Source of the DNA: a virus | Lineage: Duplodnaviria > Heunggongvirae > Uroviricota > Caudoviricetes | Reading direction: 5' to 3' (one strand) | DNA: 64,000 nt | IMG/VR virus record: IMGVR_UViG_2526164690_000025 | Shown here: one piece after another, positions 32,396 through 37,867 of the stretch | Layout: each line of letters begins with the position of its first letter | How positions within the stretch are numbered: the stretch's first letter is position 1 | The notes under the pieces: generated by a model | Told to the model about the DNA's origin: nothing | Database searches by the model: none | What the model saw: only the letters and a program-made list of their open reading frames with translations | Translations under genes and position numbers: made by a program

Positions 32396-33241
32396 TTACT
32401 GTGCCGCTTTGTTTAATTCATCAAGAACAGAATCAGGAACCAAAGCGGCGACTGCGCTGGCTGTGCTGGCCTTGTTTGCTGATGCTTCAGCAAGCGCGGT
32501 ACCGATAGCATGGTTATAAGCAGTTATGGCTACGTTGGCGCTTTCATTCGCTCGTTCATACTGCTGTTGTAACGCAGTTGTGGGTGCTGTTGTCTGGTTG
32601 AAAACAACCCCAAACTGTTCAGTTGCTACTTTCAGAGATTCAATTTGCTCTTCTGTTAGTGCTGGTGGGGGAGTGGCAGTGCCGCCGCCTGAACCAGAGC
32701 CTGACGAGCTTTCTGAGCCAGTGTTAAGGGTCTGGTTAATCTCCCCCATTGCAGCGACTAAACTTGATGTATTAAGCGCGTTAACAGCGTCCTCAAGCGA
32801 TTTAGTAATATTCACATCACCAATGGCAATAGAGATCGGCAGTTCTGAAACTTCTCGCTCATTAGCACGGCAGTAAACATCCCAACCAATATCGAGTTGA
32901 AGCAGCATTGACAGATCTGCATAACCAGCCAACAGGTCCGCGTGCTTAGTTGCCAGTTCTCCAATGTTCGTTAAGCCGGTTGTGGTTGTTCTGATCGTTG
33001 AAACATAGCTGGTAATAGTGTCGGGATAGACAATTGTATCCAGAATTAATCCGGTCAATTCTTCTGCAAGCAGTTTTGCTGTGTTAGCACTGTTTCGTGC
33101 CGATGTTATGGCACCAGGTGTTTTCATCCCACCGGCGGCGGCCAATTTTTTATATGCGGATAACTGGTAGTCTTTTTCCAGCATGATATCTCCTAACTTA
33201 CCTGAACCAGGCCGTCTCCGGACGCTACGGTAGATCCGCAT
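32396..33241 (-). CDS. hypothetical protein
   Basis: 281-aa ORF with Ser/Gly linker. Confidence 0.35.
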   Translation of the reverse strand: MRIYRSVRRRPGSGKLGDIMLEKDYQLSAYKKLAAAGGMKTPGAITSARNSANTAKLLAEELTGLILDTIVYPDTITSYVSTIRTTTTGLTNIGELATKHADLLAGYADLSMLLQLDIGWDVYCRANEREVSELPISIAIGDVNITKSLEDAVNALNTSSLVAAMGEINQTLNTGSESSSGSGSGGGTATPPPALTEEQIESLKVATEQFGVVFNQTTAPTTALQQQYERANESANVAITAYNHAIGTALAEASANKASTASAVAALVPDSVLDELNKAAQ

Positions 33242-33477
33242 GAAACAGGGTCACCAACGCATACGATCCCTTTACCATTGACGGTAAACCATGCCCTGGT
33301 TGATATAGCTTGCCCACCGTGCGTACTGTTTCCATCGGTATGCTGTGCATATTGCTTACCATCAACTAACACTTCGACTCCGTTGACTTTAAGTAGTGGT
33401 TCACTCTCTACAGGAGGCCTGGATGGGAATCCTCCGTGCCCCGAACAAATGCTGTCTTTTGTTGCAATGCTTGCCAC
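33193..33477 (-). CDS. PAAR-like spike-tip protein
   Basis: 94 aa; CSGHGG, VNGVEV, THGG, VNGKGIVCVGDPVSCGS motifs characteristic of PAAR repeats. Confidence 0.55.
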   Translation of the reverse strand: MASIATKDSICSGHGGFPSRPPVESEPLLKVNGVEVLVDGKQYAQHTDGNSTHGGQAISTRAWFTVNGKGIVCVGDPVSCGSTVASGDGLVQVS

Positions 33478-33575: not shown

Positions 33576-33931
33576 TGTTTTTTATGTCGTATTTTCGGTA
33601 CCATTCAGCCATCGCCCTTCAATGGGCATTTGTTTGGAGTCGTCAGATGCAGATGGAGCTAATAAGCCGCAAAGAGTTCGATAGCCGTGTAACCAGCGGT
33701 GAACTCGACAACTTGCAGGCTATCAAGGTGAAAGAAGGCTTTTGCCTCATTGGGAATCAGAGCGGAATAAATCGCGTTTTTATGCTTCGCCGTACGGATT
33801 TGAAGCCATTTGTCTGGAAGAACGAAATTGGTCCCAGCTCATACGCTCAAACGAGGGGGTGCCACAACCTGGCCTTTTTCTACAAAGACGAGCTTTCTGT
33901 GGTTGATATTCAAGGGTTACAACATGTTTAA
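33575..33931 (+). CDS. hypothetical protein
   Basis: 118-aa ORF upstream of rdgC-like gene. Confidence 0.3.
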
Positions 33932-34829
33932 GCACTGGAAAAACATTACTATTTATAAACTTTCTCGTGAGGCGGATCTGACCGACTTAGAAGATAAAAA
34001 GAAAATGATCCTTTTCACGCCATGCGGTAGTCAGGATATGGCCAAGTTCGGTTTTGTATCGCCATTTGGTGATAATTCTGAAGTTATCGCTATGCATGGA
34101 AATGGTTTTATCCTTGTTGAAGCAAAGCGCGAAACAAAAATTCTTCCCCCGCCGGTTATCCAGCGAGCTATTCAAGAAAAAATTGAAAAACTTGAGCAAG
34201 AACAAGCGCGTAAACTGAAGAAAACAGAGAAGGACTCCCTGAAAGACGAAGTTCTGCATTCTCTTCTGCCACGGGCTTTTTCAAAGTTTTCTGTTATCCA
34301 GGCGATCTACGACGGTTCAACTAAACGTATCTATATCAATGCCAGCGCGCGGCAGGCAGAGGATATGCTCGCGCTTATGCGTAAGTCTCTGGGTTCTCTT
34401 CCTGCTGTTCCCCTGAGTGTTGAAAATCCCATTGAATTAACGCTGACCGACTGGGTACGTGATGGTAGTGCTCCACAGGGATTTCAAATGGGGGATGCGG
34501 CAGAACTTAAGGCAGTGCTTGAGGATGGCGGTATTGCCCGAGTGAAAAAGCAGGATTTGGGAAGCGATGAAATTTCCACACACCTGGAAGCTGGCAAGCT
34601 CGTCACTAAGTTGGCACTCGACTGGCAGAACCGCATTAAATTTACACTGGACCATAACTTCAGCCTTACCAGCGTCAAATTTGCGGATGAATTGCTTGAG
34701 CAGAACTCTGATATTGATAGTGAAGATGTTGCGCAGCGACTGGACGCAGATTTCTTCCTGTTGACCAGTGAAATTTCGTGCCTGGTTGATGCTCTGGTAA
34801 ATGCCCTTGGCGGAGAGGCTAAGCAGTGA
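33924..34829 (+). CDS. hrdC: RdgC-like recombination-associated protein
   Basis: N-terminus [16 protein letters not shown] resembles RdgC (MLWFKNL.VYRL); about 300 aa; in P1 this slot is hrdC. Confidence 0.65.
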
Positions 34830-37800
34830 AAGAGCTGTGCTATGGATCTGTTTGCAGTGGAATTGAAGCCGCGAGTATTGCCTGGGAACCGTTGGGTATG
34901 CGTCCGGCGTGGTTTGCTGAAATCGAGCCTTTTCCATCGGCCGTTCTTGCGCTCCGCTGGCCCCATGTTGCCAACCTTGGCGACATGAAAAAACTTGCCA
35001 AAAAAGTCTTGGCTGGGAAAATCGAATCCCCTGACGTGCTCGTCGGGGGAACACCATGTTTTACCGCGGGGCATATGGTTCTTTGTAAAAATGGCTATAA
35101 ACCAATAGAAAATGTTTGCCCTGGTGATTACGTAGTCAGTCATCTCGGGCGGTTACAACAAGTAAAAAGAGTTGGTTCAAAAATAGCTAATACGGGGTTA
35201 CTTAATGCCGTTGGGCAGCCTTTAGGTATAAGAACAACCAATGACCATCCCTTCCTGGCTGTTCGGTGGAAAGCCCAAAACACCCGGAAAAATGGCACAT
35301 ATTTTAAGAGAGAGTTGTTGTCTGAACCGGAATGGCGAGCAGCATGTGATATGCCGGGATATCAATGGTGCGCTCTAACTAATTTCAATATTGCATCTCC
35401 AGATATTTGTTCTCGGTTCTTGTCTGAAGAACAGGCTATGTATCTTGCGGGCGCTTATGTTGGCGATGGATATATTAGGAGATGGAGAGGTAAATCTAAG
35501 AAGGCGGTTGTTTTTGGCATAAATTGCCAGAAATTGAGAAAGTTTCATTGCCGCATACCAGAAAACATATTTTCCGTGGCAAGCGAAATCCGAGGGAGCA
35601 TCAAAGTAACCTTGAATGATACGTGTTATGCCAATTGGCTTAATGAACATTTTGGCGAGTTAAGCCATGCTAAGCGTATCCCTGCATGGGTGATGTCGCA
35701 TCCATTGCGTCATGTGTTTTTACAAGGCTATCTTGATACTGATGGGACACCAAGTGGTAAAGCGGGATTTAGAATTAATAGTGTTAGTTCTGCGCTTGCT
35801 TGGGGCGTTGCGGGGTTGTCACAGACTTGTGGTTATGTTTCTTCGGTCAGCTTTATTGAAGTTGAGCCCAAAAAAGTGATCGAGGATCGCGTGGTAAATC
35901 AACGGAATTATTATCAGGTAACAATCTGCCCGCAGAAATTGTCACGTAAATCAAGATTGGCTCATGGAATGCTTTTACGAACAGTCAAAGAGTTTAAATC
36001 GGTAGGCCTAGATACTGTATACAACATAGAAGTCGAAGGTGATCATTCCTATATCCTCAATGGTGCGGTGGTCCATAACTGTCAGGCATTCAGTATCGCG
36101 GGATTACGTGGTGGGCTTGATGATGAGCGTGGCGCGCTAACTTTAAAGTATGTGGAGCTTGCAAATGCAATTGACGACAAACGGGCTGAGTCATTTCTCA
36201 AACCAGCCGTTATCGTCTGGGAAAATGTCCCAGGAGTCTTGTCATCGGCAGATAACGCCTTCGGATGTTTCCTTGCCGGATTGGCTGGAGAAGATGTGCC
36301 ATTTGAACCAGGTGATCGACCTGAATCAGGAAAAAGCAACGCGTTCTGGCGGTGGGATGGCAAAACCGGTTGCCATGTTCCAAAGTGGCCGCAGTGTGGT
36401 TGTATTTATGGACCGCAGCGAAAAGTGGCCTGGAGAATCCTTGATGCCCAATACTTCGGAGTGGCACAACGACGCCGACGCGTGTTTGTTGTCGCAAGTG
36501 CTCGAACAGATCTCGATCCCGCAACGGTACTTTTTGAGTTCGAAGGCGTGCGCCGGAATATTGCGCCGAGCAGAGGCGAGGGGAAGGAAACTACCAGATA
36601 TACTTCAAACATCGCTATCAGATCTTGCGATGATACAAACATAGTTGCCATGGCACATGGGCAAGGAGGGGCTGAGATAAAAACCGATAATTCGGCACCA
36701 ACTTTGACATGTAACCATGAAGCACCAATTGTATTGCTCGGCGACGGTAGAATGCGCCGTCTTATCCCTGTCGAATGTGAAAGGCTGCAAGGTTTTCCTG
36801 ATGGACATACATTGATCCCTACGGAAAAGCGTAAAAAAGTTTCTTCAGATGAACTGGCATACCTTCGCAAAAACTATCCTGATTTGAGCGAAGAAGAGGC
36901 CGCGATGCTTGCAGCTGACGGACCGCGTTACAAAGCGATCGGCAATAGTATGGCAATACCAGTAATGCGCTGGATTGGCGATCGGATTACTAAGGCCGTA
37001 TGTCGGCAGAAAGAAGGAAGTGAAACAAAAGAGCGAAAAGTTAAACCAGCGGCAGAATTCGAACGGTCCATATTCAAATGGGCTGGTGGAAAATTTGGTG
37101 TTCTGGAACAAATCTTTCGCTATTTGCCAGAAGGGAAGCGCCTGATTGAACCTTTCGTTGGTGGCGGAGCTGTCTTCATGAATGCCGGATACCAGGAAAA
37201 TCTGCTAAATGATGTGAATGCTGACCTGATTAACTTTTACAAGACTCTGCAACGCGAGGCGCATTCACTTATCACTCTGGCACATCGTTTTTTCCTGGAC
37301 TACAACACCCGGGAGGGATACCTGGCAGTACGGAATGCGTTTAACAAACAAGTCTATGATGATTTACATCGCGCAGCGGCGTTTTTGTTCCTGAACCGAC
37401 ATTGTTTTAACGGATTGACGCGTTACAACCAGGCCGGTGAGTTCAATGTCGGTTATGGGAAGTATAAAACTCCGTATTTCCCATTACAGGAGATGGAAGC
37501 CTTCCTCGGTGCGGAAGGGCGGTCTGAGTTTGTATGCGGTGATTTTGCAGCGGTGATTGAAGCTGCCGGAGAAGGAGATGTCATCTTTTGCGATCCGCCG
37601 TATGAACCGCTTCCAAATACAGAGGGATTCACGAACTATTCCGGTCATGACTTTAAGTTTGAAGAGCAAAAACGCCTGGTGTCTCTGTTGACGGATGCTC
37701 ATCGTCGAGGTGCAAAGGTTCTCATTACTAACAGTGGCGCGCCAAACATCAGAGAGCTTTATCATGACAGTGGCTTCAGAGTGGAACCTCTTTTTGCCAG

Positions 37801-37867
37801 ACGTTCTGTGTCTTGTAAGGGGGACACTCGAGGTGTAGCTCATGACGTTTTTGGTATATTGCTCTAA
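34826..37867 (+). CDS. dmt: bifunctional DNA methyltransferase (N-terminal C5-cytosine MTase, C-terminal Dam-like N6-adenine MTase) containing an intein
   Basis: C5 motifs: [11 protein letters not shown] (I), GGTP-[intein]-CQAFSIAG (PCQ), IVWENVPG (ENV), [11 protein letters not shown]; C-terminal KWAGGK, EPFVGGG, DPPY motifs of Dam-type MTases. Confidence 0.85.
35057..36079 (+). other. intein (341 aa) with LAGLIDADG homing-endonuclease domain
   Basis: Begins Cys (CFTAGH) immediately after GGTP, ends ...VVHN followed by Cys of the PCQ motif; two LAGLIDADG-like motifs ([23 protein letters not shown]). Confidence 0.7.

What the first reader, a model, noticed from the sequence alone, without database searches (positions are those of the whole stretch)
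35057..36079. Intein with a LAGLIDADG homing endonuclease inserted in the Pro-Cys catalytic motif of a bifunctional DNA methyltransferase
The 1013-aa methyltransferase has a 341-residue insertion that starts with Cys immediately after GGTP and ends ...VVHN followed by the catalytic Cys of the C5-MTase PCQ motif (GGTP | C...HN | CQAFSIAG). It contains two LAGLIDADG-type motifs. The excised extein (about 672 aa) would be a C5-cytosine MTase fused to a Dam-like N6-adenine MTase. The insertion point makes methyltransferase activity conditional on splicing.
Basis: partly seen in the sequence, partly recalled or inferred. Interest (0 to 1): 0.7.

Follow-up and report, generated by a model that had tools for sequence, protein, structure and literature searches.

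The report
Intein in phage P1-family Dmt methyltransferase
The DNA methyltransferase gene of this P1-like phage-plasmid is interrupted, exactly at its catalytic cysteine, by an ordinary self-splicing protein element (intein) carrying a homing nuclease; about a quarter to a third of natural P1-like elements have it, and I found no paper describing it.

Summary
ORF 34826-37867 (+) encodes a 1013-aa Dmt of a P1-like phage-plasmid. Residues 78-418 (nt 35057-36079, 341 aa) are a clean in-frame insertion between Pro77 and the PCQ cysteine of the C5-methyltransferase domain. P1 Dmt and P7 Dam read GGTP|CQAFSIAG without it.

The insert has every sequence hallmark of a class 1 intein and both LAGLIDADG motifs with their acidic residues. 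A confident AlphaFold model matches PI-SceI and other intein endonucleases. At least 128 diverged cluster representatives carry the same kind of intein at the same P|C...HN|CQ site of C5-methyltransferases.

Within P1-like elements the intein is polymorphic: 129 of about 490 plasmid records and 152 of about 489 complete E. coli genomes that carry this dmt. It is about 9 times less diverse at synonymous sites than the N-extein and sits in many flank haplotypes. One adjacent silent base always travels with it. This fits spread by gene conversion, that is homing.

Splicing and cleavage themselves are inferred, not shown. Verdict: a real, ordinary intein and a new member of a known kind.

The parts
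34826..37867 (+). dmt precursor ORF (1013 aa, GTG start overlapping the hrdC stop as GTGA): N-extein, intein, then a C-extein holding the rest of the C5-MTase and a Dam-type MTase
   Evidence: 99% identical to dmt of OP279344. The annotated neighbours match the P1/P7 gene order.
34826..35056 (+). N-extein (aa 1-77): start of the C5-MTase domain, ending ...VLVGGTP
   Evidence: pN/pS is 0.14 among intein-bearing alleles.
35057..36079 (+). Intein (341 aa): Hint splicing domain interrupted by a double-motif LAGLIDADG homing endonuclease domain. GC is 42.8%, against 54% for the N-extein and 48.5% for the C-extein.
35057..35083 (+). Intein block A (CFTAGHMVL). Cys78 is intein Cys1, the first nucleophile.
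   Evidence: Cys1 is present in 144/144 family representatives.
35234..35254 (+). Intein block B (TTNDHPF), containing the TxxH motif (intein T61 and H64)
   Evidence: T61 is conserved in 141/144 and H64 in 144/144.
35441..35476 (+). First LAGLIDADG motif ([12 protein letters not shown]), with catalytic-type Asp (intein D137)
   Evidence: D137 is conserved in 135/144. It ends predicted helix 124-137.
35669..35692 (+). Endonuclease block D (AKRIPAWV), with conserved Lys (intein K206)
   Evidence: K206 is conserved in 142/144.
35717..35749 (+). Second LAGLIDADG motif ([11 protein letters not shown]), with catalytic-type Asp (intein D229)
   Evidence: D229 is conserved in 141/144. It ends predicted helix 218-229.
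36017..36079 (+). Intein blocks F and G ([21 protein letters not shown]), with penultimate His and terminal Asn418
   Evidence: TIGR01443 above its cut-off. Match to the Spl DnaX mini-intein C-terminus. N341 is conserved in 144/144 and H340 in 130/144.
36080..36082 (+). +1 Cys codon (Cys419). It is the second splicing nucleophile and also the catalytic Cys of the C5-MTase PCQ motif IV.
   Evidence: Aligns with Cys81 of M.HhaI in GFPCQAFSI. The +1 residue is Cys in 140/144.
36572..36754 (+). Variable (target-recognition-type) segment of the C5-MTase domain. The window has the short P7-type cassette.
   Evidence: Cassette type assorts independently of intein presence.
36837..36855 (+). Sequence identical to the late promoter LPdam2 predicted in the P7 record. 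It lies downstream of the intein and upstream of the Dam domain.
   Evidence: a prediction by the P7 annotators, not tested
37079..37777 (+). Dam-type (D12 class) N6-adenine MTase domain, aa 752-984
   Evidence: Pfam PF02086, E 1.9e-56. TIGR00571, 247 bits against a cut-off of 114.85.
33924..34829 (+). hrdC (rdgC-like), the upstream gene of the same operon. Its stop codon overlaps the dmt start.

Best explanation
The insert is a genuine class 1 intein with an embedded double-motif LAGLIDADG homing endonuclease. It sits between Pro77 and the catalytic Cys of motif IV (PCQ) of the C5-cytosine methyltransferase domain of a P1-family Dmt.

Mechanism (inferred from established intein chemistry, not tested here). 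The 1013-aa precursor is translated. Cys78 performs an N-S acyl shift. Cys419 attacks the resulting thioester. Asn418 cyclises, helped by His417, and releases the 341-aa intein. An S-N shift then restores a normal Pro-Cys bond, giving a 672-aa Dmt with an intact GGTPCQAFS active site. Until that happens the C5 domain cannot work. The C-terminal Dam domain may work regardless.

The released intein is expected to cut intein-less dmt alleles at the empty GGAACACCT|TGTCAGGC site when two P1-like genomes meet in one cell. Repair from the intein-bearing copy would then copy the intein in, together with a few adjacent bases. That would keep it polymorphic in the P1-like population.

What is shown: the anatomy, the family, the predicted fold and the population pattern. 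What is inferred: splicing, cleavage and homing.
For: 1. Clean 341-aa insertion relative to P7 Dam and P1 Dmt.

2. Intein signatures: Hint_2, LAGLIDADG_3 and TIGR01443 matches; blocks A, B, C, D, E, F and G located.

3. AlphaFold model with pLDDT 92 and pTM 0.89. Best Foldseek matches in the PDB are PI-SceI (E 2e-17), the TliVMA intein, PI-PfuI and PI-PkoII; the endonuclease part also matches I-SceI and I-DmoI.

4. A large family at the same site. There are 184 clusters at E<=1e-30. Of 147 full-length matches, 136 have Pro at -1, 128 have CQ at +1/+2 and all start with Cys. Splicing and nuclease residues are nearly invariant over 144 representatives, and the window has the consensus at each.

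5. In-silico splicing raises the Pfam C5-MTase score from 99.8 to 120.7 bits, with a continuous match across motif IV. The +1 Cys aligns with Cys81 of M.HhaI.

6. The 77-aa N-extein is under purifying selection in intein-bearing alleles (pN/pS 0.14). That makes sense only if it is rejoined to the rest of the domain.

7. Mobility signature among 22 distinct intein-bearing alleles. Synonymous diversity is 0.143 in the N-extein, 0.016 in the intein and 0.040 in the C-extein. There are at least 10 flank haplotypes around one intein. The silent base at -1 is A in 32/32 intein-bearing alleles and T in 11/11 intein-less alleles. A silent patch at -16/-13/-10/-7 occurs only in intein-bearing alleles.

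8. The intein is polymorphic: 129 intein-bearing against 361 uninterrupted plasmid records, and 152 against 337 E. coli genomes.

9. A plaque-forming laboratory P1vir stock (OP279344) carries it (PMC10250240).
Against: - No protein-level or cleavage data exist; I found no paper on it.
- Within the P1 family the endonuclease part has pN/pS of about 0.63 on few substitutions. Current nuclease activity is therefore not secured, although no change touches D137, K206 or D229.
- The low diversity of the intein and the mosaic flanks could also arise from ordinary recombination around one old insertion.
- Every intein-less allele I read differs at -1 from the intein-bearing flank (11/11). They might be resistant to cleavage, or this might simply be a co-conversion marker.
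- Hint_2 (28.1 against 28.4 bits) and Intein_splicing (17.9 against 35.8 bits) fall below the Pfam thresholds for this one sequence.
- Pro at -1 is, as I recall from engineered inteins, unfavourable for the first splicing step. The family nevertheless conserves it.
Confidence: 0.85

Rival explanations
1. A splicing-competent intein whose endonuclease is already inactive or decaying. On this view the intein is inherited vertically and reshuffled only by the general recombination that is frequent among P1-like genomes. It persists because precise deletion is rare and imprecise deletion would destroy the active site.
For: - pN/pS in the endonuclease part is 0.63, against 0.10 in the N-terminal splicing part.
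- The intein is only at 26-31% frequency rather than fixed.
- No close relative exists outside the P1 family; the next nearest intein is 57% identical, so no recent transfer between families is visible.
Against: - The catalytic-type D137, K206 and D229 are intact, and none of the 20 nonsynonymous variants touches them.
- Synonymous diversity in the intein is about 9 times lower than in the adjacent N-extein.
- The -1 marker is tightly linked and the -16..-7 patch is specific to intein-bearing alleles. These are what short co-conversion tracts predict.
Confidence: 0.3
2. A non-splicing insertion. The C5-methyltransferase domain would be dead in these alleles, and only the C-terminal Dam domain would matter, working either within the unspliced protein or as a product of the internal late promoter.
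For: - Dam methylation is the documented P1 dmt function (PMC12707154); the record annotations say only 'perhaps' for C5 activity.
- A predicted internal late promoter lies downstream of the intein.
Against: - All splicing residues are intact and match a family consensus.
- The N-extein, useless without splicing, shows pN/pS of 0.14, and the first 300 nt of the C-extein, which are C5-domain sequence, show 0.27.
- The ORF stays open over 3 kb in most of the alleles read: 31 of 36.
Confidence: 0.05
3. A bacterial intein-like (BIL) or other Hint-domain module rather than a true intein. It would cleave or rearrange the host protein instead of ligating it.
For: A weak sequence match of the N-terminal 67 residues to a solved BIL domain (2lwy, E 0.18).
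Against: As I recall them, BIL domains lie in variable regions of non-conserved proteins, carry no homing endonuclease, and do not require a +1 nucleophile. This element lies inside one of the most conserved motifs of its host enzyme. It has a LAGLIDADG domain, HN|C in nearly all members, and intein-free orthologues with an intact motif.
Confidence: 0.02
4. The intein additionally acts as a regulated switch (conditional protein splicing). For example, a Cys1/Cys+1 disulfide or DNA binding could time C5 methylation during lytic growth.
For: Only circumstantial: Cys is present at both splice junctions, and the host gene is under C1 repressor control according to the P1 and P7 annotations.
Against: Nothing in the sequence distinguishes this from constitutive splicing. 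Intein-less alleles are the majority and evidently viable.
Confidence: 0.08

Closest known systems
PI-SceI (Sce VMA1 intein) and the archaeal intein endonucleases PI-PfuI, PI-PkoII and the TliVMA intein
   Same: Two-part architecture: a Hint splicing domain interrupted by a double-motif LAGLIDADG endonuclease. Cys1, TxxH and a terminal HN followed by Cys are present. These proteins are the best structural matches to the model (E 2e-17 to 1e-9).
   Different: Only 11-18% sequence identity. The window's intein is smaller (341 aa against 454-537). It has a different host protein and insertion site, and it lives in a bacterial phage-plasmid rather than in yeast or archaea.
Inteins at the same P|C...HN|CQ site of other C5-cytosine methyltransferases, all uncharacterised database proteins: for example P0022 (1148 aa, also C5 plus Dam), P0011 from Mannheimia haemolytica, and the mini-intein P0019
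   Same: Same insertion point, same block structure, and 28-57% identical inteins. P0022 even shares the C5-intein-Dam architecture.
   Different: The P1-family copy is an isolated lineage: about 99% identity within the family, then a jump to 57%. None of these relatives has been studied experimentally as far as I could find.
Inteins in actinobacteriophage DNA methylases (N6/N4 type DNMT-1/2 and the Dorothy_75 family; C-5 methylases are listed in a 2025 survey)
   Same: Inteins with homing endonucleases inside phage orphan methylases. They show the same signature as here: near-identical inteins in diverged exteins (PMC9957025; PMC5050341; bioRxiv 10.1101/2025.01.02.630785).
   Different: Different phage group and hosts (Actinobacteria), and mostly a different methylase family. 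None of those papers mentions P1, P7 or dmt in the passages I read.
Intein-free Dmt of phage P1 (AF234172) and Dam of phage P7 (AF503408)
   Same: The extein is the same protein: 96% identity to P7 Dam at the same length of 672 aa, in the same operon position after hrdC.
   Different: The reference P1 and P7 genomes lack the intein. P1 also carries a longer variable cassette (754 aa).

Membership tests
Class 1 intein (Hint superfamily) | In-frame insertion in a conserved site of a host protein, absent from orthologues that keep the motif intact | tested here: met
   P7 Dam and P1 Dmt read GGTP|CQAFSIAG; one 341-column gap. 361 uninterrupted plasmid alleles.
Class 1 intein (Hint superfamily) | N-terminal Cys/Ser nucleophile (block A) and block B TxxH | tested here: met
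   Cys78 (intein C1); TTNDH with T61 and H64. Conserved in 144/144, 141/144 and 144/144 of the family.
Class 1 intein (Hint superfamily) | C-terminal blocks F and G ending His-Asn, followed by a Cys/Ser/Thr +1 residue | tested here: met
   [21 protein letters not shown]|C. TIGR01443 scores 28.9 bits against a cut-off of 15.6. Aligned to the Spl DnaX mini-intein C-terminus.
Class 1 intein (Hint superfamily) | Hint fold of the splicing domain | tested here: met
   AlphaFold model with pLDDT 92. Foldseek matches to PI-SceI, the TliVMA intein, PI-PfuI and the Prp8 and gp41-1 mini-inteins. This rests on a predicted structure, not a solved one.
Class 1 intein (Hint superfamily) | Protein splicing: excision of the intein and ligation of the exteins | not testable with these tools
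   Needs expression, western blot and mass spectrometry. The only indirect support is purifying selection on the N-extein (pN/pS 0.14).
LAGLIDADG homing endonuclease (intein-embedded, double-motif) | Two LAGLIDADG motifs, each ending in an acidic residue, plus the block D Lys | tested here: met
   YLAGAYVGD137[10 protein letters not shown]229G and AK206RIP. Pfam LAGLIDADG_3 scores 30.3 bits against 22.5. Family conservation is 135, 141 and 142 of 144.
LAGLIDADG homing endonuclease (intein-embedded, double-motif) | Two alpha-beta-beta-alpha-beta-beta-alpha half-domains | tested here: met
   Predicted elements are H124-137, E, E, H157-166, E, E, H189-199, then H218-229, E, E, H245-257, E. Foldseek matches I-SceI, I-DmoI, I-AniI and I-OnuI. 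Predicted structure only.
LAGLIDADG homing endonuclease (intein-embedded, double-motif) | Site-specific cleavage of the intein-less allele, and homing | not testable with these tools
   Population data are consistent with homing: low intein diversity in diverse flanks, and a linked -1 base. They do not prove nuclease activity.
C5-cytosine DNA methyltransferase (host, N-terminal domain) | Motif IV PCQ with catalytic Cys, together with the other conserved motifs (ENV, QxRxR, GN) | tested here: met
   After in-silico splicing, GGTPCQAFS aligns to M.HhaI GFPC81QAFS. ENV, QRRRR and GNS are also aligned. PF00145 scores 120.7 bits. Enzymatic activity was not tested.
Dam family (D12 class) N6-adenine DNA methyltransferase (host, C-terminal domain) | Match to the family model above its curated cut-off | tested here: met
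   TIGR00571 scores 247.1 bits against 114.85. PF02086 has E 1.9e-56.
Bacterial intein-like (BIL) domain | Hint domain in variable regions of non-conserved proteins, without an endonuclease and without a conserved +1 nucleophile (definition recalled from memory) | tested here: not met
   The insert lies in a highly conserved catalytic motif, carries a LAGLIDADG domain, and has +1 Cys in 140/144 family members.

The most novel reading that the evidence does not exclude
The intein may be more than a passenger: it could be a weapon in competition between P1-like phages. On this reading its endonuclease, made together with Dmt when the C1 repressor is lifted, cuts the dmt gene of a co-infecting or resident intein-less P1/P7-type genome. 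It thereby biases inheritance of the surrounding region, as homing-endonuclease-mediated marker exclusion does in T-even phages. Intein-less alleles would survive only because silent changes around the site (-1T, and -7T/-4G in the P1/P7 type) make them resistant. A second element of the reading is that splicing gates C5 methylation in time.
Probability: 0.12. Interest if true: 0.6.

Novelty: new member of a known kind. Interest (0 to 1): 0.3.

Why it matters
P1 is a textbook phage and the standard transduction tool. P1-like phage-plasmids occur in about 9% of complete E. coli genomes (494 of 5426) and often carry resistance genes. The reference P1 and P7 genomes happen to lack this intein. 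Current annotation calls the 1013-aa protein simply a 'Dam family methyltransferase', so the element is easily overlooked.

It offers a convenient model for intein homing in a phage:
- A laboratory P1vir stock already carries the intein (OP279344), while the reference P1 c1-100 does not.
- Natural intein-less alleles exist with different silent variants around the target site.
- There is a ready read-out, namely m5C on phage DNA.

The wider family is also a large, apparently unstudied pool of inteins that tolerate Pro at position -1. That property may interest protein engineers. None of this changes how inteins are understood.

Tried and rejected
1. My first prevalence estimate used an 80-nt empty-junction query and gave 66 plasmids and 47 genomes. 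It was wrong: megablast needs a 28-nt exact seed, and the diverged flanks break it. A junction with T at -22 and -1 already found 333 records. The 600-nt split query gave the figures I use, 361 and 337 uninterrupted alleles.

2. With 8 alleles, five N-flank sites (-118, -104, -48, -22, -1) appeared fixed between intein-bearing and intein-less alleles. With more alleles only -1 survives.

3. I considered the BIL-domain and pseudogene readings and rejected them (see the rival explanations).

4. Sequence search of the PDB with the intein alone gave only marginal hits, the best at E 0.0014. The fold comparison was needed.

5. PHROGs gave only a match to an intein-containing ribonucleotide reductase family, which was not informative.

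6. Eight literature searches found nothing on an intein in P1, P7 or P1-like dmt. Subscription journals are not covered, so a prior mention cannot be excluded.

7. The word-indexed protein search returned mostly truncated proteins and undersampled the family. The exhaustive search was the informative one.
Full report
**What is there**

The window is part of a P1-like phage-plasmid. The region around the finding has the P1/P7 gene order: hrdC, then dmt, then tRNA genes, tciA and ban.

ORF 34826-37867 (+) encodes a 1013-aa protein. 'GGTP|C' and 'VVHN|C' place the insert at residues 78-418, which is nt 35057-36079 and 341 aa. Removing the insert leaves 672 aa.

I aligned this protein with P7 Dam (672 aa), reference P1 Dmt (754 aa) and two other intein-bearing alleles. 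The only difference at this point is one clean 341-column gap between ...VLVGGTP and CQAFSIAG....

**What the insert is**

- Pfam finds a Hint domain start at aa 77-126 (28.1 bits, just under the 28.4 cut-off). It finds a LAGLIDADG_3 domain at aa 298-361 (30.3 bits against 22.5) and a weak Intein_splicing match running to residue 418.
- NCBIfam's intein C-terminal splicing model TIGR01443 is above its cut-off at aa 398-419, ending on the +1 Cys.
- All canonical blocks can be placed:
  - A: CFTAGHMVL
  - B: TTNDH, the TxxH motif
  - C: [12 protein letters not shown]
  - D: AKRIP
  - E: [11 protein letters not shown]
  - F and G: [21 protein letters not shown], followed by Cys
- An AlphaFold model built on 12 homologues is confident (pLDDT 92, pTM 0.89). 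Its best matches among solved structures are full-length intein endonucleases: PI-SceI (E 2e-17), the TliVMA intein, PI-PfuI and PI-PkoII. After these come free-standing LAGLIDADG enzymes and mini-inteins, matching the respective halves.

**The host site**

After in-silico splicing, the Pfam C5-methylase match becomes continuous across the junction and rises from 99.8 to 120.7 bits.

The spliced sequence [27 protein letters not shown] aligns with ILCAGFPCQAFSISGKQKGFEDSRGTL of M.HhaI. The +1 Cys therefore corresponds to HhaI Cys81, the catalytic nucleophile of motif IV (alignment; the role of Cys81 is established knowledge).

The C-terminal third is a Dam-type enzyme (TIGR00571, 247 bits). The extein is thus the known bifunctional P1/P7 Dmt/Dam.

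**The family**

An exhaustive search of 1.84 billion cluster representatives found 4301 relatives at E<=1e-3 and 184 at E<=1e-30.

Of the 147 listed proteins that match the intein end to end:
- all begin with Cys;
- 133 end in HN;
- 136 have Pro at -1;
- 128 continue with CQ.

In the eight closest relatives I scanned, the C5-methylase profile resumes at profile position 71 directly after the intein. One of them, P0022, also ends in a Dam domain.

Residue conservation across 144 representatives:

| Role | Residue (intein numbering) | Conserved in |
|---|---|---|
| Splicing | C1 | 144 |
| Splicing | T61 | 141 |
| Splicing | H64 | 144 |
| Splicing | D329 | 134 |
| Splicing | H340 | 130 |
| Splicing | N341 | 144 |
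| Splicing | +1 Cys | 140 |
| Nuclease | D137 | 135 |
| Nuclease | K206 | 142 |
| Nuclease | D229 | 141 |

The window's intein has the consensus residue at every one of these positions.

A scan of viral contigs confirmed 154 related loci. This is therefore one member of a large intein allele family that occupies the PC|Q site of C5-methyltransferases, many of them in phages.

**Population picture in P1-like elements**

The intein occurs in 129 PLSDB plasmid records and in 152 of 5426 complete E. coli genomes: 148 places on plasmids and 5 on chromosomes.

A 600-nt query made of the two flanks counts all alleles:

| Collection | Carry the region | Uninterrupted | With intein | Intein frequency |
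|---|---|---|---|---|
| PLSDB plasmid records | 500 | 361 | 129 | about 26% |
| Complete E. coli genomes | 494 | 337 | 152 | about 31% |

My earlier counts from an 80-nt junction query were underestimates caused by the 28-nt seed requirement. I discard them.

Diversity among 22 distinct intein-bearing alleles out of 30 read:

| Region | Synonymous diversity | pN/pS |
|---|---|---|
| N-extein (231 nt) | 0.143 | 0.14 |
| Intein (1023 nt) | 0.016 | 0.28 |
| First 300 nt of the C-extein | 0.040 | 0.27 |

Among 32 intein-bearing alleles read, the same intein sits in at least 10 different N-flank haplotypes, several of which match different intein-less alleles.

Only one flank site segregates perfectly. 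It is the silent third base of the Pro77 codon, immediately next to the insertion. It is A in 32/32 intein-bearing alleles and T in 11/11 intein-less alleles that I read. At least 60 further intein-less records match a T-containing junction exactly.

A patch of four silent changes at -16, -13, -10 and -7 occurs in 8 of 32 intein-bearing alleles and in none of the 11 intein-less ones.

The intein is also lower in G+C: 42.8%, against 54% and 48.5% for the flanks.

Together these patterns are what repeated gene conversion with short co-conversion tracts would leave, after an original invasion from a diverged donor gene. They do not prove that the conversion is driven by the nuclease.

**How it most likely works**

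*Shown.* The anatomy, the family, the predicted fold, the position at the catalytic Cys and the population pattern.

*Inferred from established intein chemistry.* Cys78 and Cys419 act as the two nucleophiles. Asn418 cyclises with the help of His417. The product is a 672-aa Dmt with a normal Pro-Cys bond plus a free 341-aa endonuclease.

One indirect argument supports splicing. The 77-residue N-extein is under purifying selection in intein-bearing alleles (pN/pS 0.14). That would be pointless if it were never rejoined to the rest of the C5 domain.

*Inferred for homing.* The free intein cuts empty dmt sites when two P1-like genomes share a cell, and repair copies the intein in.

The weak point is the endonuclease part. 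Its pN/pS is about 0.63 within the P1 family, on few substitutions. None of the 20 nonsynonymous variants affects a catalytic or splicing residue. I put splicing competence at about 0.9 and current nuclease activity at about 0.6.

The intein makes the C5 activity depend on splicing. The Dam domain is a separate C-terminal domain.

The P7 record predicts a late promoter inside the gene. Its 19 nt are identical in the window at 36837-36855, downstream of the intein. In-frame Met codons follow at residues 694, 709 and 714, ahead of the Dam domain. Dam methylation at pac is the documented P1 dmt function (PMC12707154). It may therefore not depend on the intein at all.

**Comparison with what is known**

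Inteins in phage methylases are documented for actinobacteriophages:
- N6/N4 methylases (PMC5050341);
- the Dorothy_75 family, where identical inteins sit in diverged exteins, as here (PMC9957025);
- C-5 methylases, listed among intein hosts in a 2025 survey (bioRxiv 10.1101/2025.01.02.630785).

I found no paper mentioning an intein in P1, P7 or P1-like dmt. RefSeq names the protein only 'Dam family site-specific DNA-(adenine-N6)-methyltransferase'. Some fragments are auto-named 'Hint domain-containing protein'.

One useful detail: GenBank OP279344 is the genome of a laboratory P1vir stock (PMC10250240). It carries this intein at 99% identity. An experimental system is therefore at hand.

**Verdict**

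This is a real feature, correctly read by the first stage. It is an ordinary class 1 intein with a LAGLIDADG endonuclease at the catalytic cysteine of the C5 domain of P1-family Dmt. It is polymorphic in nature, with a population signature compatible with homing.

It is a new member of a known kind. Interest is modest, at 0.3. It would not surprise an intein or phage specialist, but it appears undescribed, concerns a very widely used phage family and is directly testable.

Noticed in passing
window 36572-36754; L003, L004, L006, L019: The variable (target-recognition-type) segment of the C5 domain is a swappable cassette. It gives exteins of 672 aa (P7 type, as in the window), 754 aa (P1 type) or 862 aa (L006, L019). 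All combinations with and without the intein that I looked for exist, so cassette and intein assort independently.
   Followed up: partly
L001 (OP279344) 3001-6042: A laboratory P1vir stock, sequenced for an Argonaute study, carries the intein-bearing, P7-type dmt. The reference P1 c1-100 mod749::IS5 has neither. Lab P1 lineages therefore differ at this locus.
   Followed up: partly
window 36837-36855: The late promoter LPdam2 predicted in the P7 record is conserved base for base inside dmt, downstream of the intein. In-frame Met codons lie at residues 694, 709 and 714, before the Dam domain. This suggests a possible Dam-only product.
   Followed up: partly
window 34826-34829: The hrdC stop and the dmt GTG start overlap as GTGA, which suggests translational coupling.
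   Followed up: no
window 33193-33477 (-): A small ORF (94 aa) upstream of the operon corresponds in position to a gene annotated as a PAAR domain-containing protein in a related plasmid (L009; ORF).
   Followed up: no
L012 (NZ_CP027223) and L013 (NZ_CP012497), about 10 nt either side of the start of the intein; L014 (NZ_CP057105): Two records have 1-nt deletions in G runs: one in the intein's codon 4, one in the GGGGG run just upstream. They are either sequencing errors or fresh pseudogenes. A third record has an IS91-family transposase replacing the first ~250 nt of dmt.
   Followed up: partly
protein P0011 (Mannheimia haemolytica, 439 aa, seen on 578 contigs): A 47%-identical intein at the same site looks intact, but the C-extein ends about 20 residues after CQ. 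This may be a decayed methyltransferase that retains its intein.
   Followed up: no
proteins P0019 and the 147 family members: P0019 is a mini-intein without a LAGLIDADG domain at the same PC|Q site. The family almost always has Pro at position -1 (136/147). I recall Pro at -1 as unfavourable for the first splicing step in engineered inteins.
   Followed up: no
complete E. coli genomes: Five of the 153 intein copies lie on chromosomes rather than plasmids, for example NZ_CP007394 at 2.17 Mb. These are presumably integrated P1-like elements.
   Followed up: no
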